A stretch of 64,000 nucleotides of DNA from Vicinamibacteria bacterium (GTDB lineage: Bacteria; Acidobacteriota; Vicinamibacteria; Vicinamibacterales; UBA8438), in assembly GCA_022821235.1 (NCBI GenBank), contig JAJEEA010000419.1:2095-66094 (forward strand). Reading direction: 5' to 3'. Below, in pieces: positions 36,150 through 45,032 of this stretch. Every line of letters begins with the position of its first letter. Position 1 is the first letter of the stretch. The translations under genes were made by a program, and so were the position numbers. The notes beneath the pieces were generated by a model. That model was given only the letters and a program-made list of their open reading frames with translations. It was not told where the DNA came from and made no database searches.

Positions 36150-36356
36150 TCACGCGCGACGTGGCCCATTTCCTTCTTGCTGCGCTGCAGCAATGCGATT
36201 TCGGATGGTGTCAACATCCGGTGCGCGAGCGAGGTACCGAGCTTCCGATTCAGTAAGGCAGTCGAAGGCGTGACCGAACCGTTCCCGCCACCACTCCTCG
36301 AAGTTCCGGCCGTGCTTCTGTCTGAGCTCATGCAGTTGCTCCCGGGATGGACTCAA
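36150..36356 (-). CDS. hypothetical small ORF (TTG start) overlapping the stop of the PRTase-domain gene
   Basis: ORF only. It may instead be a frameshifted tail, because the adjacent frame reads HRMLTPSEIALLQRSKKEMGHVAREVL. Confidence 0.2.
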   Translation of the reverse strand: MSPSREQLHELRQKHGRNFEEWWRERFGHAFDCLTESEARYLARAPDVDTIRNRIAAAQQEGNGPRRA

Positions 36357-36673
36357 CTTGGCCGAGTACGTCTGGCCGGCAGGACGACGGCGCCGATGAC
36401 CGTGCAGCCCTGCTGCTCCACCCAGCCGCGCAGGTTCGCCAGAGTGCCTCCCTGACCGATGAAGTCGTCAATCGTCACGTAATGGCGTCCCTTGGCCACT
36501 TCCCCCGTGAAGGCGGCCTGACGGGCGAGGCGTGCGTAGCCATCCGCACCCGTATGGGACACCACGTTGGTCTGTACAACTGTATCCTCGCATTCCAGTC
36601 CAAGCCGATCGTTCAGCAGTCTTGCCAGCGCAATCGGAATCGCGTTGACTCCCTCACGCTCGTAGGGACACTG
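36353..36673 (-). pseudogene. 3' part of partner gene B2: phosphoribosyltransferase domain (IS-disrupted)
   Basis: PRPP-binding motif GRHYVTIDDFIGQGGTLANL. The frame is open up to the IS junction at 36673. Confidence 0.65.
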
Positions 36674-37950
36674 CGCTAAATTAACTTGCCATCTTGTGGA
36701 TTCTGTGCTTTACTGACCGCATGCGGCGAGACGTGGAGTTGGAAGCCACCATCGTAGCCAAGTACGTCGCGGTGGCGCCTGTACTGGACGAACGTAGTCG
36801 TCGCCGATGGGCCGCCGCCGAGTCGTTGGCGATCGGCTACGGCGGCGATGCGCTGGTATCGTCCGCCACGGGTCTGGCTCGGGAGACAATTCGCAAGGGA
36901 CGCAGGGAGATTGCCGGCGGCGAGGAGCCGACAGGTCGCGTGCGGCGCGCCGGAGCGGGTCGCCCCCGCATTCAGGAGGGTCAACCCGGCATTCTGACTG
37001 CTCTTGAGGCGTTGGTGGACCCGTTGACGCGCGGGGACCCGACCTCGCCGTTGCGCTGGACGTGCAAGAGTCGCGCGAAGCTCGCGGCGGCGTTGACCGA
37101 GCAGGGGTGGCACGTCAGTTCGACCACGGTGGGCCGTCTGCTTAACCGCTTGGGCTACAGGCTGCAATCGGTTCGCAAGCGGCAGGAAGGTACCACGCAC
37201 CCGGACCGCAACGCCCAGTTCGAGCACATCAACGCGACGGCGGCCGCGCATCTGACGGCCGGGCAACCGGTGATCTCGGTCGACACGAAGAAGAAGGAAC
37301 TGGTGGGGAATTTCACGAATGCGGGCCGGGAATGGCAGCCGAAAGGGAGGCCGTCGGCGGTGCGCGTGCATGATTTCCCGAGCGACGCGGAGGGCAAGGC
37401 GATTCCGTACGGCGTTTACGACATGGCCCGCAATGAAGCGTGGGTGAGCGTTGGGCGAGACCACGACACCCCGGCCTTTGCCGTGGCCTCGATTCGGCAC
37501 TGGTGGCAGCGCATGGGCGAAAGGGCCTATCCGGACGCCAGGACCTTGTACATCACCGCCGATGCGGGTGGGAGCAACGGGTATCGGTGTCACGCGTGGA
37601 AGCACGAGCTTCAGCGCTTGGCCGATGAGATTGGCCTGACGATCCAAGTGAGCCACTTTCCCCCCGGCACGAGCAAATGGAACAAGATCGAGCACCGACT
37701 GTTCTGCCACATCACGGCGAATTGGCGTGGGACTCCGCTGACGACTTACGAAACCATTGTCGACCGCATCGGCAACACGCGAACGGCGGCGGGGCTTCGC
37801 GTGCAAGCGGAGCTCGACGCTGGCGAGTATCCTACCGGGGTGAAGGTGAGCAAGGCGCAGTTGGCCGCAATGATGTTGGTGCGTGATGAATTCCACGGGG
37901 ACTGGAATTACAAATTCACTCCCCGATGAAGTTGGCAACTTTATATCGAT
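36674..37950 (+). mobile_element. ISAzo13-family insertion sequence (1277 bp) with 5-bp target duplication CACTG
   Basis: CACTG at 36669-36673 and again at 37951-37955. Imperfect terminal inverted repeats around a TTGCCA core. A single transposase ORF. Confidence 0.75.
36721..37929 (+). CDS. ISAzo13-family DDE transposase
   Basis: Blocks VISVDTKKKELVGNF, AIPYGVYD, ITADAGGSNGYR and HFPPGTSKWNKIEHRLF are characteristic of the Rhodopirellula/ISAzo13 transposase family. Confidence 0.9.
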   Translation: MRRDVELEATIVAKYVAVAPVLDERSRRRWAAAESLAIGYGGDALVSSATGLARETIRKGRREIAGGEEPTGRVRRAGAGRPRIQEGQPGILTALEALVDPLTRGDPTSPLRWTCKSRAKLAAALTEQGWHVSSTTVGRLLNRLGYRLQSVRKRQEGTTHPDRNAQFEHINATAAAHLTAGQPVISVDTKKKELVGNFTNAGREWQPKGRPSAVRVHDFPSDAEGKAIPYGVYDMARNEAWVSVGRDHDTPAFAVASIRHWWQRMGERAYPDARTLYITADAGGSNGYRCHAWKHELQRLADEIGLTIQVSHFPPGTSKWNKIEHRLFCHITANWRGTPLTTYETIVDRIGNTRTAAGLRVQAELDAGEYPTGVKVSKAQLAAMMLVRDEFHGDWNYKFTPR

Positions 37951-38427
37951 CACTGTCCATAGTCAGCAACCGTGCGGCCCAGCCGGACTGACGGGCCGCG
38001 CGAGGCCCACCACCGCGCGCTCGACAGCCGGTCGATACGGGCGACCCGCGAGTCGGCGGCATATGCCTGCTTTACGGACTCCGTCGCGATCACGCCGCCG
38101 TCCAACCGCCGCCGATCGTCTGTAGCGAGGGCTTCCGCACACCAGGCGCAGTCGTCCGCGGGCCGGACGGGCCGTGCCGGCTCGCAGGGCAACAGCCGCT
38201 CCTGCGTCGCCATCTTCTTGAGCAATTTCCTGCCCCCGCCGATGCCATGGCCGCGCGTCGCCACGGAAGAGACCGCTCCAGGCGCCGTCCCGGAGGTCAC
38301 GCACCAGCCCCTCCGTCAGCATCGCTTCACGGATGGTCTCCAGGCGGGCGGCGCACTCACCCTCGGTCGGGTACGAGGTGACGTCGAACACGTCCGGTGT
38401 GATCGCGTAGTCGGCCAGAAGCGCCAT
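37951..38427 (-). pseudogene. 5' part of partner gene B2 (N-domain shared with B1); frameshift at C5 run 38233-38237, then cut by the IS
   Basis: MALLADYAITPDVFDV... starts with a TGATG overlap on the A2 stop. It aligns with the B1 N-terminus (YAIEPDALV; GDRDRRRILRKL vs GDARPWHRRGRKLLKK; PAEQCW vs PADDCAW). Confidence 0.55.
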
Positions 38428-40417
38428 CAGAAGATCTCCCGCAGGTCTTCCTCGAAGAAGCCGCCCGGCCACGCCTTCACCAGCTCGCCCCTCTCGTTGA
38501 GCGGCATCTCTCGAATCAGCGTCTCGGCCCCGTCCGGCTCCACGAACAGCACGTTGACGTCCTCGTGGCGGACCTCGGGGGCGCCGTCCGGCAACGTTCC
38601 CCCGCTGGTCTCCCGCATGCGGCGCATGATGCGCAGGAACAGATGCTCGCTGTGAGTCTCGATCAGGAACACGTTGCCCTCAGCGGCTCCCGTCGCGAAG
38701 AGATCCCCGAGCTCGACCTGCAACCGCGGATGGACGTGCAGCTCCGGCTGCTCGATGGCCGTGATCTCCGGGCGATCCGGATCGAGCGCAGCCACCACCA
38801 CCGGCAGCAGTTGCGAGATCCCGACACCGATGTCGGACGTTCGCACCGGCAGGTCGGACCTGGTGGCCACGAGCTGGATCTCCCGGTGAATCGGCGCGTC
38901 GGCAATGTGCTCGAACCGGGCCCGGACCTTGTCGGGCGCCTCCCTCATGATGTCGTCCGGTGATTCCCCGCCCGACATGCCCGCCAACGCGGCGAAGAAC
39001 GGCGCTCCCCACTCCTCGCCTTCCACGCTCTTGTTCAATATTCCGACCAACGGCGTGGCCGCGGGAAGATGAACAGCTCTCCGCACCTGCAGCGTGTAGC
39101 CCGTGTCCAGCCGATCCTCTCGCGACAGCCAGTCGCTCAGTCTACGAATCACCGTCGCGCTCATGGCCCCGGCGTCGAGTTGCGGCGAGTCGATCAGCTT
39201 TCGCGTATCCTGATCCACGTTGACGCGCGCATGACCGTTCAGGAGATCCCAGGCTGCAGATCCGTCGGCCCAACGTCGACGGTCGGATCGTGCTCGTTCA
39301 CCGCCGGCGGCCGGATGCAGGTTGCGCAGGGGCCCGACATATCTGTACTGGGCCAGCCCATCACGCAAGAGGCCGCCGATCCCGACCACCAGCGTTGACA
39401 CGCCGTGCCAGAGTTCGTGATAGTCGTCATCGAAACCCTCTTCCAGCTCCATATCGAGATGGTGGCCAAAGGACGGCAGGGCACCACACGAACGGCCTTG
39501 GCGGACCGCCATGCGATGGTGCGCCGGCCCGAACGACTGCGGTTCGGGCGCCTCCCGTACTTGTCCGACCTCCGGCAGAGCCGCGGTCTCCAACGCCTGA
39601 CGCGCGGCCCGGAGCTTCTCCAGTTTCGCTTCGAGCGCCGCCAGGGTTCCCTCCCGAAGAACGTGGTCGAGCATTGGATGCGACAGGTTGGCCAGCAGGT
39701 CCGCCTTGTCATCGCCGGCCGATGCCGCAATGTGACCGACGATCTCTCCGTCGACGCCGACCTCGTAGTCGCTCAGAACCGGCCCGTTACGCTCTGTCGA
39801 CCACCGAACGGTCAGCCCCACCCATCCGGTCTCGATGCGACCGGACCGACTTCCCACGGGTACGGCGCGATGCGCATCGCTCCCGCGAGCTCCGGCAACG
39901 CTCGATTTCGCAGGTTCAGCTCGAAGCGGAGCCGCACCGATCGGGCCAAGTCGTGCCCGTGGACGAATTGGCGGAACCCGCCCAGGTCGATGTGATCGCC
40001 GCCGAGACGGGTCTCGTGTGCATCGACGTTGCGCTGGCTCAGAATCTCGTGCGCGTAGCAGAGCGCGTGCAGCACCGTGCTCTTGCCGGCGCTGTTGCGG
40101 CCGAACAACAGGGTGATGGGCCGGAGCTCGATGCGGACCGGCCGACCGATCCCCTTGAAGTTCTCGATCTCGACGGCCCTGATCACCGGCGACTTCCGTT
40201 CCGGCGCCGTGTCCGCCGGTTCCCTTTCGTCCGCCGAGGACCGCCCTGCCTGGATGGACCGCGACGGCAATGCACCGGCCGAAGCCCTCTCCTCGGGCAC
40301 GTCCGACCCGGCGAGTCGTGGGGTCTGCATATCACCCATCGGTCCGTCGCCCATGGGAACCGCAGTGTCGTCACCGCAATCGAGCTCACGCAGCATAGTG
40401 CCGTCCACTCCTCGCAA
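38427..40417 (-). CDS. ABC-type (AAA_15/AAA_21-like) ATPase A2, paralogue of A1; apparent frameshift near 39845-39880
   Basis: VEIENFKGIGRPVRIELRPITLLFGRNSAGKST (Walker A), IEQPELHVHP (Walker B), ETHSEHL (H-loop), C-terminal WPGGFF. Split over ORFs 39812..40417 and 38427..39857. Confidence 0.75.
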
Positions 40418-40542: not shown

Positions 40543-41559
40543 TCAAGACCTTCCGGCAGGTCGACCGCGACGATTCTCAGCCGATCGCCGACGACTGGTC
40601 GACTTGTCTGCGGTCACCGTGAATTCACCGTCCTTGTCGAAGAACGGACTGTCGTCGCCAAACCCCTCCCGAACGCGTTTCCATTCCTGATCGTCGAGTA
40701 GCCCGACCGGCTGCACCTTGCCGGGCTCCAGGTCAAGCCCCTTGTCCAGTCGGTAGCCGCCGCGATCGGTCAAGATGTACCGTGCATGGAAATCATCCGG
40801 GGCATCGCTTCGAATGCGCCAGCGGCAGATGCGCACCGACCCGACCCCCGCCTTCAGCATGCCAGGAACATGCGACCTGCACCGCCCTTCGAACTCCTCG
40901 CTGCTCGGCCCGCCTTGCACGGACGGGGATGCCCTCCGTGCCAACGTGTGGATCTCCGCCCGGAGATTACCGTGTACCGCTTGCGCCGCCAGCGCCAGAC
41001 ACGCTCGCACAACGGGACGCCATCGGCTGACGGAGGGATCAAAATGCGGATCGATCAGCAGCAATTGGCGGCTGTTGCGCACGAGGGTACCGACGTGCGC
41101 CGCCAGCGCAGCCGATTCCCGCAGTACCGGAACCTCGCGCGGAACGGCCAGTTTCTCGTGCGATTCGTCGACGTCCTCCTCACGAACCACGTCCGGATGA
41201 TCCTCCGGATTCCGCGTCGCGAGGAGGGCGTGGAACTCCCGGGCTGCAGCCTGTCGCGCAACGGCGTTCCGAATCCAACACTGTTCCGCGGGCGTGATCG
41301 CACCGTCATAGTCGTCTGACCCGCCCAGCCGGATCATCTTGACGTTGGACTGGTCCAGCTTTCGCAGGATCCGCCGTCGATCACGGTCGCCGAGATCGGT
41401 ATTCTCTCGGCAAGCGGCGCGAACCAGTGCCTTCCAGCGCTTTCGGGTCGGATACGCGGCAATCGCCCGGCCATGCTGGAACCCCATCAGATCGAGAATG
41501 TGCCGGCACTTGTCCCACGTGACGAGCGCATCGGGCTCGATTGCGTACGGATAGAGCAT
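40543..41559 (-). CDS. partner protein B1: shared N-domain + C-terminal PLD/MIT_C-like HxR(x)4D..GLD motif
   Basis: ATG overlaps the A1 stop (TGATG). C-terminus has LLLIDPHFDP ... FHARYILTDRGGYRLDKGLD. No other family is recognised. Confidence 0.65.
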   Translation of the reverse strand: MLYPYAIEPDALVTWDKCRHILDLMGFQHGRAIAAYPTRKRWKALVRAACRENTDLGDRDRRRILRKLDQSNVKMIRLGGSDDYDGAITPAEQCWIRNAVARQAAAREFHALLATRNPEDHPDVVREEDVDESHEKLAVPREVPVLRESAALAAHVGTLVRNSRQLLLIDPHFDPSVSRWRPVVRACLALAAQAVHGNLRAEIHTLARRASPSVQGGPSSEEFEGRCRSHVPGMLKAGVGSVRICRWRIRSDAPDDFHARYILTDRGGYRLDKGLDLEPGKVQPVGLLDDQEWKRVREGFGDDSPFFDKDGEFTVTADKSTSRRRSAENRRGRPAGRS

Positions 41560-43436
41560 CAGAAGAGCTCGTCGTCCCGTTCGTCGAAGAAGCCCTGCGG
41601 CCAGTGGTCGACGAACTCGCCGGTCTCGTCGATCCGAAGCCGCGTCGCCCTGACCTCGCCGTCGACCTGCTCCACGTAGACCACGGAGACCTGGTCCGGC
41701 TTCAGCGCAGGCTTTCCCTCGGGCAGCTCGCCGCTGGCCGTCTCTTCGATGCGACGCAGGAGGCGCAACATCAGGTGCTCGCTGTGGGTCTCGATCAGGA
41801 ACGCCCTGCCGCCGACCGCCTGTTCGGCGAAGAGATCGCCGAGTTCGACCTGAAGGCGGGGATGAACGTGCAACTCCGGCTGCTCGATGGCGGTGATCTC
41901 CGGTCGGTCCGGATCGAGAGCGGCGACCACCACCGGGAGTAACTGCGAGATGCCCACTCCGATTTCGGACGTTCGCACTTGCAGGTCGGTCCCGCTGGTC
42001 GCAATGAGCTGTACCTCTCTGCGAACTGAGGCGTTGGCGATCCCGTCGGCCAAGGCATTGATCTGGTCCGCTGGCGCCTTCCTCACGATGTCGCCACGAG
42101 ATTCAGTCCCGGACAGGTTTGCCGCCTTCGCCTTGGCCGCCGCCCAATCCTCGCCCAGAACGCTTTCGTTCAGCACATCCACCAACGGGGTAGTCGTAGG
42201 AAGCTCGATGTCGTTGCGCACTCGCAACTCGTAGCCCGTATCCAGCCGATCCTCGCGCGAGAGCCAGTCGCTCACCCGTGGGATGACCATGGCCTGATTG
42301 CGCTTGCGCGGGTTGGGAAAGTCGCGCGCAATTCGGCTCAACGTATCCTGCGCACGGACATTCAGAAGGTCCCAGGCCGCGGAGCCGTCGGCCCAACGCC
42401 CGGGGACGGACCTGTCCCGCTCTACGACCGTGCGCGGATGCAACTCGCGCAGCGGACCGAGATACCTGAACCGGGCCAGTTCGTCGCGCACAAGACTTCC
42501 GATACCGGGGAGCAGCATCGACAGTCGGTGGCGGGAATGCTGATCGAAGTCGCCGAAAGCGTCGTCTCTTGTGACCCAGAGCATCTGCCCCAATGGTGGC
42601 AAGGCGGAAGACGGCGTGGAAAGCACCGCCATGCGACGGAGTTCCCGGCCATACTCCACCGATCCGCGCGCCTCCCGCACGTGTCCGACCTCTTGCGACG
42701 GGATGAAGTTCCCCTGGTCGTCCATCCCGTATTCGAGCAACGGATGCGACAGGTTCGTCAACAGGATCGCCTGCCCGGAGAAGGCCGGTTCGGTGATTCG
42801 CCCCACGAGCTGTCCGTCGACACCGATCTCGTAGCGACTGACAATCGGCTCGTCCCGTTCTCGCTGCCATTCGGCCGTAAGTTCCAGCCACCCTGCCTCT
42901 GCACCGTCGAGGACGTCGCGTTCCTCCAGCAAGGGTATGTCGCCTGTCGGCAACATGACCGGCACGTGGGTACCCCACCCCGCGAGCTCGGGCAGGCTCC
43001 GATCCCGCAGGTCCAACTCGAAGCGAAGTCGCAAGGGACGCGTCGAATCGTGCCCATGGACGAAACGCCGGAACCCGCCGAGGTCGACCTGGTCGCCGCC
43101 GAGCTCGGTGGTGCGTGCGTCGACGTTACGGTGGCTGAGGATCTCGTGTGCGTAGCACAGCGCATGGAGGATCGTGCTCTTGCCGGCGCTGTTGCGGCCG
43201 AACAGCAGGGTGATCGGCCGCAGATCGATCCGCACCGGACGGCCGATGCCCTTGAAGTTCTCGATCTCGATGGCGGTGATCAGCGGGACCTCCTGCTCGG
43301 GTTGTTCAGTGTCGCTCGACTGGTGCGACGTCTCCGACCCGAACGCCGGTTCTCCCTTCAGCCCCGGATCCGGCCCTTGCGGCCGTCCCGGCGCAGACTG
43401 GGAGGCGTTGCGTGGATGCGTCGGTTCGTCTGTCAT
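41559..43436 (-). CDS. ABC-type (AAA_15/AAA_21-like) ATPase A1 with DUF3696-like C-terminus
   Basis: IEIENFKGIGRPVRIDLRPITLLFGRNSAGKST, IEQPELHVHPRLQVELGDLF, IETHSEHLMLRLLRRIEE, and ...DHWPQGFFDERDDELF at the end. Confidence 0.85.
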   Translation of the reverse strand: MTDEPTHPRNASQSAPGRPQGPDPGLKGEPAFGSETSHQSSDTEQPEQEVPLITAIEIENFKGIGRPVRIDLRPITLLFGRNSAGKSTILHALCYAHEILSHRNVDARTTELGGDQVDLGGFRRFVHGHDSTRPLRLRFELDLRDRSLPELAGWGTHVPVMLPTGDIPLLEERDVLDGAEAGWLELTAEWQRERDEPIVSRYEIGVDGQLVGRITEPAFSGQAILLTNLSHPLLEYGMDDQGNFIPSQEVGHVREARGSVEYGRELRRMAVLSTPSSALPPLGQMLWVTRDDAFGDFDQHSRHRLSMLLPGIGSLVRDELARFRYLGPLRELHPRTVVERDRSVPGRWADGSAAWDLLNVRAQDTLSRIARDFPNPRKRNQAMVIPRVSDWLSREDRLDTGYELRVRNDIELPTTTPLVDVLNESVLGEDWAAAKAKAANLSGTESRGDIVRKAPADQINALADGIANASVRREVQLIATSGTDLQVRTSEIGVGISQLLPVVVAALDPDRPEITAIEQPELHVHPRLQVELGDLFAEQAVGGRAFLIETHSEHLMLRLLRRIEETASGELPEGKPALKPDQVSVVYVEQVDGEVRATRLRIDETGEFVDHWPQGFFDERDDELF

Positions 43437-43465: not shown

Positions 43466-43481
43466 AGCAAGGCGCGTGCCA
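43466..43481 (-). promoter_or_regulatory. sigma-54 (-24/-12) promoter TGGCAC-gcgcc-TTGCT
   Basis: The reverse complement of 43466-43481 reads TGGCACGCGCCTTGCT. It lies 25 nt after the RtcR-like stop and about 30 nt before the A1 ATG (43436). AGGTAGG Shine-Dalgarno-like sequence 8 nt before the ATG. Confidence 0.65.
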
Positions 43482-43506: not shown

Positions 43507-45032
43507 TCAACCGCGCCGGTTCTCGATCCGCCGCGTCACGCCGTAGCGATGCATCCAGTTCGTGAGTGTCTGGTAGCTGGGCAGCCCGATCAACTCGGCC
43601 GCTCGCGTCTTGTTGCTGGCTGCCTCGTCGAGCGCGCGCTCCAGGTAGTGACGGGCGAGGTCGGCCATCAGGGCCGGGAGATCGAGGCCGCCGCGGAGTG
43701 GCCGACCCAGCAGATCGGCTGACGCGTCCGTCGCCGTGCGGAGCAGTTCCTCGCCCACATCCCCGGCCTCGATGACGGCGTGCGGGCGTCCACAGCACGA
43801 GCCGGTCCATCGTCGCCTGCAGCTCCCGCACGTTGCCGGGCCACAGGTGCCGCAACAGAAGGTTCCTGGCCTTTGGAGAGAGAATCTTCTGTTCGACGCC
43901 GGGCTGGTCGGCGAACTTTCGGTTAGCGGCCGCCAGGAAGTGATCGATGAGCGGCGTCAGGTCGCCCTGGCGCTCGCGGAGCGGCGGCAGCCGGATGACG
44001 CCGGTCGCCAGCCGGTAGTAGAGGTCCTCCCGGAACCGGCCCGCCGCCACCTCGGCCGCGAGGTCGCGGTTGGTGGCCGCGATCACCCGCACGTCGACTG
44101 CCACCGCGCGGTCGGCGCCGAGGCGCCGCACGGTCTTCTCCTGCAGCGTGCGCAGCAGCTTGACCTGGGCGTCGGGGGGCAGCTCGCCAATCTCGTCGAG
44201 GAACAGGGTTCCGCCGTCGGCCGCTTCGAAGTGGCCGGCGCGGGCGCGGACGGCGCCGGAGAACGCGCCCCGCTCGTGGCCGAAGAGCAGCGATTCGACG
44301 AGGCCCTCGGGCAGCGCGCCGCAGTTGACGTCCTCGAAGCGTCCGCGGGCGCGGCGGCTCTCGGCGTGGATGGCCCGGGCGAACAGCTCCTTGCCCGTGC
44401 CGGACGCGCCCTCGATAAGGACAATGACGTGGTGCGGGGCCACCCGGCGGGCGCGGGCTCTTGCCCGGTCCATCAGCGGACTGCGGCCCACTATTCGGTC
44501 GAACGCGGGAGACGCCGTCGGCAGGCCGGTGGTCAGCCGTTCGATCTTCGCATCGGCATGCCGCAGCAACGCCGGCACGTACTCGGCGGCGATGTCGAAG
44601 GGCACCGAGACCGTGCGCACGCCGGTCTGGGGGTGCGACTGAATCAGCTCCGCGGGATAGCGGGTCTTGGCGAGCAGCACCCAGACCGCCTGCATGGCGG
44701 GCGTGCCGGGGCTGACGTGCACCGCGAGGTCAGCGTCGGCGCCGAACTCGTCGCGCGTGAAGTCGAAGGCCCGAACCACCGCGGCGTGGATGGCGCCGTA
44801 GTCGGTCGGATCGGACAGGACTTCGGTCCGAAGATGGATGGAAGGAGCGCCCGACTCGACCAGCCGGTCGAACGAACGCCCGGTTCTCCGACGCCGGATA
44901 GTTGGAGAGCAGCACCAGCGCATCGAGCCGGCGAGCGGCGACGACGCTGCCGACGGGACCCCGACCCGGCCGCCCCCCCCGCGCGCAGTCGAGGTCGGTC
45001 TGGCCGATCCAGGTCAGGAGCACCGCGGGCAC
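43507..45032 (-). CDS. RtcR-like sigma-54-dependent activator (CARF-type N-domain + AAA+ + Fis HTH); two apparent frameshifts (~44870-44885, ~43775-43790)
   Basis: GTG start then [43 protein letters not shown] resembles E. coli RtcR HITTGTHVAQICWFLLAEARYLPARLIQS (recalled from memory). [25 protein letters not shown]. Tail [21 protein letters not shown]. Confidence 0.75.

What the first reader, a model, noticed from the sequence alone, without database searches (positions are those of the whole stretch)
40543..41559. Partner proteins B1 and B2 share an N-terminal domain but carry different C-terminal effector-like domains (PLD/MIT_C-like versus PRTase)
Seen: B1 and B2 align over roughly the first 110 residues. 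Matching blocks are Y-A-I-x-P-D near the start, GDRDRRRILRKL versus GDARPWHRRGRKLLKK, and PAEQCWIRNAVA versus PADDCAWCAEALA. After that they diverge completely. B1 ends with LLLIDPHFDP ... FHARYILTDRGGYRLDKGLD, which has the H-x-(K/R)-x4-D spacing of the PLD superfamily plus a GLD turn like MIT_C-type PLD folds. B2 carries a PRPP-binding loop instead. Inference: the shared N-domain docks on the ATPase, and the C-domain is an exchangeable effector. That is the modular logic typical of conflict systems. The HxR variant (Arg in place of the catalytic Lys) could mean either an altered activity or a non-catalytic binding fold.
Basis: partly seen in the sequence, partly recalled or inferred. Interest (0 to 1): 0.7.

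Follow-up and report, generated by a model that had tools for sequence, protein, structure and literature searches.

The report
ATPase-partnered PLD-fold defence protein pair
B1 belongs to a large unnamed bacterial protein family (a PIN-like docking domain plus a phospholipase-D-fold domain) that is always paired with an ABC ATPase, usually in sigma-54/RtcR-controlled restriction operons; B2 is a broken copy of the same kind of protein, and the phosphoribosyltransferase is an unrelated neighbouring gene brought next to it by a mobile element.

Summary
B1 (40543-41559, minus strand, 338 aa) is a real, intact gene. An AlphaFold2 model (pLDDT 91) matches PLD-superfamily structures, and His258, Arg260 and Gly274 are invariant in 139 diverse relatives.

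The main claim, a shared N-domain with different C-domains, does not hold. Full-length B2 homologues in 36 genomes are about 310-320 aa. They carry the same C-domain as B1 (FIDPHLDP...IEIHR...FHDRYLISN...NGFD). Family profiles align over 289 columns (E=2e-20). The C-domains are the more similar part (E=5.5e-20) and the N-domains less so (E=3e-5).

In this window B2 is frameshifted and cut at codon 156 by a 1.3-kb ISAzo13-type insertion sequence. The PRPP loop lies beyond that IS. It belongs to the remnant of a stand-alone 248-aa phosphoribosyltransferase gene that is absent from all 47 related loci compared.

The unit is an ABC ATPase (DUF3696, NsnB/HEC-03-like) translationally coupled to B. 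A perfect sigma-54 promoter and an RtcR-like CARF activator precede it. Elsewhere the pair usually sits after hsdR-hsdM-hsdS.

Best reading: an ATPase-gated effector pair related to Menshen NsnB/NsnC but lacking NsnA. This is a new variant of a known kind. The mechanism is inferred, not shown.

The parts
40543..41559 (-). B1: intact 338-aa protein. PIN-like N-domain (about residues 1-150, 41110-41559), PLD-fold C-domain (about residues 151-316, 40612-41109) and a lower-confidence (pLDDT about 60) basic tail.
   Evidence: ORF. 116 close homologues, nearly all full length. 2,923 representative clusters at E<=0.001. AF2 pLDDT 91.3. Foldseek PLD hits. N-domain Foldseek best hits are PIN domains.
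40732..40788 (-). B1 motif H258-A-R260-YILT-D265-RGGYRLDK-G274-L-D276, the putative active-site strand and turn.
   Evidence: H258, R260 and G274 are 139/139. D276 is 130/139. D265 is D75/E44/N20. B2 family equivalent is H-D-R...N...G-F-D, with H and R 35/35.
41041..41052 (-). B1 D170-P-H-F at the end of the first strand of the PLD-fold domain.
   Evidence: D170 is 136/139 with 3 E. P171 is 120/139. F173 is 129/139. H172 is variable (H65/Y56). B2 family has D174 35/35.
41559..43436 (-). A1: ABC-type ATPase with a C-terminal DUF3696 tail. Its stop overlaps the B1 start (TGATG).
   Evidence: Pfam AAA_15, AAA_21 and DUF3696. PADLOC NsnB 8e-43, PDC-M55A 1e-42, HEC-03 ATPase 4e-28. Junction sequence.
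43466..43481 (-). Sigma-54 promoter TGGCACGCGCCTTGCT, upstream of A1.
   Evidence: Only match in 64 kb with up to 1 mismatch. The same consensus follows the RtcR-like gene in 24 of 47 related loci.
43513..45023 (-). RtcR-like sigma-54 activator (CARF + AAA+ + Fis-type HTH), split over three reading frames in this window.
   Evidence: Pfam Sigma54_activat 2e-66 and RtcR. PADLOC RtcR_PspF2 1e-147. Frames -3/-1/-2 against intact 504-aa relatives.
38427..40396 (-). A2: paralogue of A1, with a frameshift near 39845-39881.
   Evidence: tblastn with A1 gives 80% and 51% identity in two frames. Frames.
37959..38427 (-). B2 remnant: codons 1-156 only (N-domain), with an internal frameshift near 38152-38234. 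Its start overlaps the A2 stop (TGATG).
   Evidence: Frames. Homologues are 310-320 aa. DNA homology to all relatives ends at 37960.
36661..37958 (+). ISAzo13-type insertion sequence (transposase ORF 36694-37929) that replaces the B2 C-terminal half.
   Evidence: Pfam DDE_Tnp_ISAZ013 2e-140. Extent taken from an 82% identical copy in L040, where it interrupts an A1-type ATPase gene.
36171..36660 (-). Remnant (C-terminal ~164 of 248 aa, frameshifted) of a stand-alone phosphoribosyltransferase gene. Not part of the A/B system.
   Evidence: Translation. Pfam Pribosyltran E=0.0016, below cutoff. 1,476 homologues of about 248 aa. Native neighbours in L051 are the same as in the window. Absent from the 47 related loci compared.

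Best explanation
B1 is the partner subunit of a two-gene module. An ABC ATPase with a DUF3696 tail (A) is translationally coupled to a roughly 310-aa protein (B). B has an N-terminal PIN-like domain without the PIN acidic residues and a C-terminal single-lobe PLD-fold domain of the MIT_C-like kind, with invariant His-x-Arg and Gly-phi-Asp.

The window holds two tandem paralogous pairs. A1-B1 is intact. A2-B2 is decaying: A2 is frameshifted, and B2 is frameshifted and truncated at codon 156 by an IS. B1 and B2 are full-length paralogues with the same architecture. The PRTase is an unrelated chromosomal gene remnant joined to B2 by an IS-associated deletion.

Shown here: homology, fold, residue conservation, gene coupling, the promoter and the conserved context.

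Inferred mechanism:
- The RtcR-like CARF activator senses a nucleotide or RNA-damage signal.
- It switches on the sigma-54 promoter.
- The A oligomer holds B through B's PIN-like domain, by analogy with the modelled NsnB-NsnC complex and with the Septu and PARIS complexes cited in PMC12065111.
- On sensing infection, ATP binding or hydrolysis releases or re-orients B.
- B's half-site PLD domain then pairs with a second copy to form an active phosphodiesterase, most likely a nuclease, giving second-line defence next to type I restriction.
For: - B1 and B2 families align over 289 columns: probability 99.3%, E=2e-20. C-domains alone give E=5.5e-20, N-domains alone E=3e-5, controls 0.2%.
- Intact B2 homologues in 36 genomes are about 310-320 aa.
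- DNA synteny with relatives ends exactly at the IS.
- The PRTase is absent from the 47 related loci compared. It is a stand-alone 248-aa family whose native neighbours match the far side of the IS.
- The AF2 model has pLDDT 91. Foldseek top hits are PLD-superfamily proteins (PLD2, Streptomyces PLD, SauUSI, PLD3, the TrmBL2 C-domain) at E 1e-4 to 1e-3 and probability up to 1.0.
- The N-domain model (pLDDT 93) best matches PIN domains 1v8p, 2fe1 and 3tix, with TM about 0.5.
- H258, R260 and G274 are invariant in 139 representatives at 25-38% identity.
- A1 matches NsnB (8e-43) and the HEC-03 ATPase model (4e-28).
- The stop and start overlap as TGATG in the window and in at least 33 of 43 loci.
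- A perfect sigma-54 promoter precedes A1 and recurs in 24 loci.
- The RtcR-like gene is upstream in about 34 of 50 loci.
- hsdR-hsdM-hsdS lie between the regulator and A-B in L043 and L048-L050, and hsd genes lie upstream of A-B in 16 loci.
- Weak sequence links to the BrxL C-terminus (5e-6 and 7e-4) and to NsnC (0.004).
- PMC12065111 describes NsnC as inPIN plus variable effectors, one of them a MIT_C-like 'PB-PLD1' with an HDR motif.
- The preprint 10.1101/2024.01.29.577857 shows that HEC-03 (ABC ATPase + PIN protein) defends against phage and needs both genes.
Against: - No experiment bears on this family.
- The canonical catalytic Lys is Arg. The D of HxKx4D is D/E/N. There is no GSxN. 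MITD1's MIT_C domain is known as a membrane binder, not an enzyme.
- The PIN-like assignment rests on weak Foldseek scores (E 0.13-0.34).
- B1 matches no Pfam, NCBIfam or PADLOC model. MITD1 is not among the 50 Foldseek rows shown.
- NsnA, which defines Menshen, is absent.
- In this window the regulator gene is broken in two places, so the locus may be inactive. Alternatively, the assembly may carry indel errors.
Confidence: 0.6

Rival explanations
1. B1 and B2 share only an ATPase-docking N-domain and carry exchangeable effectors, PLD-like in B1 and PRTase in B2.
For: In the window sequence alone, B2's N-domain is followed on the same strand, about 1.3 kb downstream, by an ORF fragment with a PRPP loop. 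Modular effector swapping on a PIN-like adaptor does occur in Menshen NsnC (PMC12065111).
Against: - All 36 intact B2 homologues carry the B1-type C-domain.
- An IS lies between the two fragments.
- Synteny breaks at the IS.
- The PRTase family is a stand-alone 248-aa protein whose N-terminal 84 aa are unlike B, with its own conserved neighbours.
- No PRTase lies within 10 kb in the 47 related loci compared.
- The top 150 representatives of the family almost all match over the full ~300-aa two-domain length.
Confidence: 0.02
2. The PLD-fold domain of B is not catalytic. Like MITD1's MIT_C it is a binding module for membrane, nucleic acid or a nucleotide. B would then be a sensor or adaptor, and the output would come from the ATPase or the adjacent type I restriction enzyme.
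For: Lys is replaced by Arg and there is no GSxN. There is a single half-site per chain. The MIT_C precedent comes from established knowledge and PMC12065111. A-B is usually embedded in hsdRMS operons that already encode a nuclease.
Against: His, Arg, Gly and two Asp are invariant or nearly so across 25-38% identity, which is typical of an active or ligand site. In Vicinamibacterales the pair occurs without hsd genes. In related ABC-ATPase systems the partner is the effector (PMC12065111; 10.1101/2024.01.29.577857).
Confidence: 0.2
3. The module is a nucleic-acid end-processing or repair function of an RtcR-type stress regulon. B would act as a Tdp1-like phosphodiesterase on blocked or cyclic-phosphate ends, rather than as an immune effector.
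For: The RtcR-like activator and sigma-54 promoter are directly upstream. The B2 family has H-D-R...N, reminiscent of the HKN variant in Tdp1 (motif recalled from established knowledge). The window locus has no restriction genes.
Against: No rtcA or rtcB lies in these loci. The context is type I R-M, GmrSD and PIN toxins. The ATPase's closest profiles are defence ATPases. RtcR-like regulators next to R-M systems are a known defence-linked clade (PMC4012209; PMC11090510).
Confidence: 0.1

Closest known systems
Menshen NsnB-NsnC (the NsnC variant with inPIN + PB-PLD1 effector; PMC12065111)
   Same: The ATPase is an ABC ATPase with a DUF3696 tail (PADLOC NsnB 8e-43). The partner has a PIN-like N-domain without the acidic quartet. 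The partner's C-domain has a PLD fold with H-(D/x)-R. Both are often linked to type I R-M.
   Different: No NsnA (ParB/DUF262) gene is present. B does not match the NsnC HMM (0 for B1; 2 of 139 relatives at E=0.004). The architecture is fixed rather than polymorphic among the top 150 relatives. An RtcR-like activator and sigma-54 promoter are attached. Tandem duplicated pairs occur in Vicinamibacterales.
HEC-03 (Hma-embedded ABC ATPase + PIN-domain protein; bioRxiv 10.1101/2024.01.29.577857)
   Same: It is a two-gene ATPase + PIN-fold partner embedded in a larger restriction-like operon. The ATPase profile hits A1 at 4e-28. Both genes are needed for defence in that study.
   Different: The HEC-03 partner is described as a VapC-like PIN protein. 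B has a PIN-like domain lacking conserved catalytic acids plus an extra PLD-fold domain. The host operon is type I R-M rather than Hma.
MIT_C domain (Pfam PF16565; human MITD1; BrxL C-terminus)
   Same: Single-lobe PLD fold. Both have the His-x-Arg motif (HDR in the B2 family), a Gly-phi-Asp turn and a conserved acid after an early strand. There are weak HMM links (MIT_C E=0.005 for one B2 homologue; BrxL 5e-6 and 7e-4).
   Different: Scores fall below Pfam's threshold. The fusion partner differs (PIN-like rather than MIT or Lon-like). MITD1 is a membrane-binding cytokinesis factor with no shown catalysis.
RtcR-led defence 'superoperons' (CoCoNuT paper PMC11090510) and the RtcR-like/R-M association (PMC4012209)
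   Same: A CARF-AAA+-HTH sigma-54 activator sits at the 5' end of a co-directional run of defence genes that includes hsdRMS.
   Different: The terminal module here is the A-B pair, not a McrBC-type CoCoNuT. The ABC ATPase + PIN/PLD pair is not mentioned in PMC11090510 (term search); PMC4012209 was searched only for its RtcR and R-M passages.
PARIS (AriA-AriB) and Septu (PtuA-PtuB)
   Same: An ABC ATPase oligomer holds a nuclease partner that acts after a trigger. This is an analogy of working principle only.
   Different: The effector folds differ (Toprim, HNH). A1 has only distant ATPase similarity (AriA 2e-19, PtuA weak).

Membership tests
PLD superfamily | PLD alpha/beta sandwich fold | tested here: met
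   Foldseek of the B1 model (pLDDT 91): PLD2, Streptomyces PLD, SauUSI, PLD3 and PPK at probability up to 1.0 and E 1e-4 to 1e-2.
PLD superfamily | HxK(x)4D(x)6GSxN catalytic motif | tested here: not met
   His is invariant, but Lys is invariantly Arg. The D position is D/E/N (Asn in the B2 family). There is no GSxN; instead GG...G-phi-D.
PLD superfamily | Two HKD lobes forming one active site (tandem or homodimer) | not testable with these tools
   There is one lobe per chain.
MIT_C (PF16565) | Match to the Pfam model at gathering score | tested here: not met
   B1 has no hit. One of 35 B2 homologues hits at E=0.005. One of 139 B1-like proteins hits at E=0.13.
MIT_C (PF16565) | H-D-R motif before a late strand plus a conserved acid after an early strand (as described in PMC12065111) | tested here: met
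   B2 family: H 35/35, D 34/35, R 35/35, D174 35/35. B1-like: H-x-R 139/139, D170 136/139.
MIT_C (PF16565) | Closest structural neighbour is MITD1 (2YMB/4A5X) | tested here: inconclusive
   MITD1 is not among the 50 rows shown for the full-length model. A search with the C-domain alone could not be run.
Menshen (NsnABC) | NsnB: ABC ATPase with DUF3696 tail | tested here: met
   PADLOC NsnB 8e-43. Pfam DUF3696 2.4e-7, above cutoff.
Menshen (NsnABC) | NsnC: inactive PIN-like N-domain plus C-terminal effector | tested here: inconclusive
   Best N-domain Foldseek hits are PIN domains (1v8p, 2fe1, 3tix) at TM about 0.5 but E 0.13-0.34. No conserved acidic quartet. The NsnC HMM hits only 2 of 139 at 0.004.
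Menshen (NsnABC) | NsnA: ParB/DUF262 sensor gene in the operon | tested here: not met
   None found in the operon here (Pfam on the locus ORFs). tblastn with a GmrSD/DUF262 protein hits only L004, where it lies downstream.
Phosphoribosyltransferase as the B2 C-domain | PRPP loop in the same polypeptide as the B2 N-domain | tested here: not met
   A 1.3-kb IS separates them. B2 homologues lack it. The PRTase is a separate 248-aa family.
RtcR-type sigma-54 activator regulon | CARF + sigma-54 AAA+ + HTH protein with a -24/-12 promoter next to it | tested here: met
   PADLOC RtcR_PspF2 1e-147. Pfam Sigma54_activat and RtcR. TGGCAC-N5-TTGCT at 43466-43481. Caveat: the gene is frameshifted twice in this window.

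The most novel reading that the evidence does not exclude
The A-B pair is an undescribed, widespread defence module (about 2,900 clusters at 50% identity) whose effector is a catalytically active His-x-Arg variant of the PLD fold. On this reading the MIT_C branch, including the BrxL C-terminus and perhaps eukaryotic MITD1, descends from enzymes. The whole operon would be an inducible immune response, switched on through sigma-54 by an RtcR-like CARF sensor of damaged-RNA or cyclic-nucleotide signals, with the half-site PLD activated by ATPase-controlled dimerisation.
Probability: 0.2. Interest if true: 0.7.

Novelty: new variant of a known kind. Interest (0 to 1): 0.45.

Why it matters
The finding as written would have added a false example of effector swapping. 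Corrected, the locus points to a large protein family with no Pfam, NCBIfam or PADLOC model. That family is tightly coupled to a Menshen/HEC-03-type ABC ATPase and sits at the end of RtcR-like/sigma-54-controlled type I restriction operons across at least eight phyla or classes.

It offers a tractable case for three open questions:
- Is the MIT_C-type His-x-Arg PLD fold an enzyme?
- How do DUF3696 ATPases control their partners when no NsnA sensor is present?
- What do defence-linked RtcR-like CARF regulators sense?

An isolate with an intact operon is available for testing: Peristeroidobacter agariperforans KA5-B.

Tried and rejected
- Pairwise tests of B1 against B2 were all non-significant: tblastn, BLASTP, and the B1 profile against the single truncated window B2. 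Family profiles were needed.
- Sequence searches of PDB with three profiles gave no relevant hit.
- Pfam on B1, on its two halves, and on 35+35+139 family members found no family above threshold. There were stray weak hits to MIT_C and DUF7931.
- PADLOC and NCBIfam have no model for B.
- Rfam found nothing on the whole window.
- The sigma-70 promoter and terminator scan of the locus was no better than shuffles.
- No second sigma-54 promoter with up to 1 mismatch lies before A2.
- The Menshen paper's supplements, which might hold PB-PLD1 sequences, are not held. No direct profile comparison with PB-PLD1 or MITD1 was therefore possible.
- Rejected: that the PRTase belongs to the system. Also considered: that the short (200-270 aa) B2 database entries reflect a genuinely shorter protein; they have out-of-frame tails and come from 2x-9x coverage contigs, and genome copies are about 310-320 aa.
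Full report
**Layout of the locus**

All genes below are on the minus strand unless stated.

| Feature | Coordinates | State |
|---|---|---|
| RtcR-like sigma-54 activator (CARF + AAA+ + HTH) | 43513-45023 | Split over three frames |
| Sigma-54 promoter | 43466-43481 | Perfect consensus |
| A1, ABC ATPase with DUF3696 tail | 41559-43436 | Intact |
| B1 | 40543-41559 | Intact, 338 aa |
| A2, paralogue of A1 (51-80% identity) | 38427-40396 | One frameshift |
| B2 remnant | 37959-38427 | Codons 1-156 only, one frameshift |
| ISAzo13-type insertion sequence | 36661-37958 (transposase on +) | Apparently complete (intact transposase ORF) |
| Phosphoribosyltransferase remnant | 36171-36660 | C-terminal ~164 aa, frameshifted |

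Both A/B junctions are TGATG stop/start overlaps.

**Checking the observation**

The claimed N-terminal similarity to B2 is not significant pairwise:
- tblastn of B1 against the whole window finds nothing in B2 at E<10.
- BLASTP gives E=0.27.
- The B1 family profile against the single window B2 remnant gives probability 2.8%.

I then collected relatives. B1 has 116 close homologues, almost all full length. A search with the frame-corrected B2 N-terminus found 84 proteins of 200-270 aa with odd tails. These come from contigs of 2x-9x coverage and are frameshifted calls.

In 43 genome loci, the ORF starting at the B2 match is 305-330 aa in 36 cases, mostly 310-320.

The profile comparison of B1-family against B2-family is decisive:

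| Comparison | Probability | E-value | Columns |
|---|---|---|---|
| Full length | 99.3% | 2e-20 | 289 |
| N-domain vs N-domain | 73% | 3e-5 | 106 |
| C-domain vs C-domain | 99.2% | 5.5e-20 | 147 |
| Cross-domain controls | 0.2% | n/a | n/a |

So the N-terminal homology is real but weak. The C-terminal domains are the best-conserved part, the opposite of 'they diverge completely'. B2-type proteins read FIDPHLDP...IEIHR...FHDRYLISNLxGISLPNGFD. B1 reads LIDPHFDP...EIHT...FHARYILTDRGGYRLDKGLD.

**Why B2 looks different in this window**

- DNA similarity between the window and every relative stops at 37960. This is B2 codon 156.
- A 1,298-bp IS begins there. Its extent is fixed by an 82% identical copy that interrupts an A1-type ATPase gene in locus L040.
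- The B2 C-terminal half is nowhere in the window.
- Beyond the IS lies the PRPP-loop ORF. It matches Pfam Pribosyltran only weakly (E=0.0016).
- It has 1,476 homologues, which are stand-alone proteins of about 248 aa. Their N-terminal 84 residues are unlike B.
- In locus L051 this PRTase gene is followed by a zinc-ADH/quinone oxidoreductase gene, an ABC_tran ATPase and a 311-aa gene. The same order is seen on the far side of the IS in the window.
- No PRTase lies within 10 kb of A-B in the 47 related loci compared.

The PRTase is therefore a native chromosomal neighbour. It lost its 5' end, and B2 lost its 3' half, in an IS-associated deletion.

**What B1 is**

The AlphaFold2 model built on 35 homologues is confident (pLDDT 91.3, pTM 0.87).
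- Foldseek against PDB returns PLD-superfamily structures: human PLD2, Streptomyces PLD, the SauUSI nuclease, PLD3, the PLD-like domain of TrmBL2, and PPK. Scores are E 1e-4 to 1e-2 with probability up to 1.0.
- A separate model of residues 1-162 (pLDDT 93) has only weak neighbours (E 0.13-0.34).
- The best of these by TM-score (about 0.5) are PIN domains: PAE2754 (1v8p), PAE0151 (2fe1) and the Chp1 PIN-like domain (3tix).

An exhaustive profile search finds 2,923 representative clusters (990 at E<1e-30). Almost all of the best 150 are about 300 aa and match over the full length. The two-domain architecture is thus a stable unit, not a swapping platform, at least among these.

Conservation in 139 representatives sharing 25-38% identity with B1:

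| Residue (B1 numbering) | Count of 139 |
|---|---|
| P9, W42, W95, H258, R260, G274 | 139 (invariant) |
| D170 | 136, plus 3 E |
| D276 | 130 |
| H204 | 120 |
| E202 | 113 |
| D265 (the 'D' of H-x-R-x4-D) | D 75, E 44, N 20 |

In B2-type proteins the D265 position is Asn in 32 of 35. The N-domain has no conserved PIN acidic quartet.

No Pfam, NCBIfam or PADLOC model covers the family. There are only weak links: MIT_C E=0.005 for one B2 homologue, the BrxL C-terminal region at 5e-6 and 7e-4, and NsnC at 0.004.

**Partner and context**

- A1 matches PADLOC NsnB (8e-43), PDC-M55A (1e-42) and the HEC-03 ATPase model (4e-28). It carries Pfam DUF3696.
- The A family has Walker A GxNSAGKS, an EQPE Walker-B region and an ETHS H-loop.
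- B always directly follows an A gene, with overlapping stop and start in at least 33 of 43 loci.
- The only TGGCAC-N5-TTGCW site in 64 kb (up to 1 mismatch allowed) lies between the regulator and A1. The exact consensus recurs on the coding strand just after the RtcR-like gene in 24 of 47 loci.
- An RtcR-like gene is upstream in about 34 of 50 loci.
- Outside Vicinamibacterales the order is RtcR-like, promoter, hsdR, hsdM, hsdS, A, B. Clear cases are the isolate Peristeroidobacter agariperforans (L043) and distant B1-like homologues at 34-36% identity (L048-L050). Type I hsd genes lie upstream of A-B in 16 loci.
- One locus adds a GmrSD gene.
- In Vicinamibacterales the hsd genes are missing and two A-B pairs sit in tandem, in either order.

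**How it most likely works**

Shown here: homology, fold, invariant residues, gene coupling, the promoter, and the conserved defence context.

Inferred:
- The RtcR-like CARF activator responds to a nucleotide or RNA-damage signal and fires the sigma-54 promoter. RtcR itself responds to tRNA fragments with cyclic-phosphate ends, as summarised in PMC11090510.
- The A oligomer holds B through B's PIN-like domain, as modelled for NsnB4-NsnC2 (PMC12065111).
- On a trigger, ATP binding or hydrolysis frees or re-orients B.
- B has only one PLD lobe. Catalysis would require pairing of two lobes, as in single-HKD nucleases such as Nuc and BfiI (established knowledge).
- The target is most likely nucleic acid.

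The Arg-for-Lys change, and the fact that MITD1's MIT_C is a membrane binder, keep a non-catalytic reading alive (about 0.2). A Tdp1-like end-processing role in an RtcR stress regulon is a weaker rival (about 0.1).

**Comparison with known systems**

- The closest described system is Menshen. The ATPase test is met. The NsnC-like architecture is plausible at fold level. The defining NsnA (ParB/DUF262) gene is absent, so this is not Menshen by definition.
- HEC-03 (ABC ATPase + PIN protein, experimentally protective; 10.1101/2024.01.29.577857) is the nearest validated two-gene relative, but it lacks the PLD domain.
- RtcR-like regulators beside R-M systems were noted in 2014 (PMC4012209). RtcR-led superoperons that include hsdRMS were described for CoCoNuTs (PMC11090510). 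A term search of PMC11090510 finds no mention of this A-B pair; PMC4012209 was searched only for its RtcR and R-M passages.

I class the locus as a new variant of a known kind.

**Caveats**

The window has five frameshifts within 9 kb: two in the regulator, and one each in A2, B2 and the PRTase. Relatives have intact genes. I cannot tell real decay from assembly error. No complex prediction, C-domain-only fold search or comparison with PB-PLD1/MITD1 sequences could be run.

Noticed in passing
window 43466-43481 (-): Perfect sigma-54 promoter TGGCACGCGCCTTGCT between the RtcR-like gene and A1. It is the only such site in 64 kb. The same consensus follows the regulator in 24 of 47 related loci.
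   Followed up: yes
window 43513-45023 (-): The RtcR-like activator gene is split over three reading frames (45023-44871, 44887-43784, 43785-43513). It is one intact ~504-aa ORF in L005, L006, L009, L011, L016 and L017. This is either pseudogenisation or assembly indels.
   Followed up: partly
L043 650-10939; L048 1161-10893; L050 1-10918: The conserved superoperon is RtcR-like, (small ORF), hsdR, hsdM, hsdS, A, B. It occurs in an isolate genome (Peristeroidobacter agariperforans KA5-B) and in distant relatives. The type I R-M genes are missing from the window's lineage.
   Followed up: partly
L040 12230-13527: An 82% identical copy of the window's ISAzo13-type IS interrupts the A1-type ATPase gene of another Vicinamibacterales genome. 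The second A-B pair also looks disrupted or partly deleted in L024, L025, L029, L031, L039, L045 and L046. This suggests recurrent inactivation of these modules.
   Followed up: partly
window 38427-40396 (-): A2 carries a frameshift near 39845-39881, and B2 carries one near 38152-38234. The whole second pair appears to be decaying, while A1 and B1 are intact.
   Followed up: partly
window 41800-41830 (-) and A genes of 32 loci: The Walker-B region of this ATPase family reads (hydrophobic)4-E-Q-P-E-x-H-x-H-P rather than D-E-P-E. The usual catalytic Glu position is Gln family-wide. This may mean slow or regulated hydrolysis.
   Followed up: no
L048 2817-3113 and L049 2094-2390: A conserved 98-aa ORF with no Pfam or NCBIfam hit lies between the RtcR-like gene and hsdR in Betaproteobacteria loci.
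   Followed up: no
window 36171-36660 (-) and L051 6001-6747: The truncated PRTase belongs to a large family (1,476 hits) of stand-alone 248-aa proteins with an unusual helical C-terminal extension (LTxSEARYL...). Most members fall below Pfam's Pribosyltran threshold. Function unknown.
   Followed up: partly
L001-L003 10764-11680: In the closest syntenic relatives, a PIN_3 toxin gene with a 91-aa partner lies directly downstream of B2. That region has been replaced in the window.
   Followed up: no
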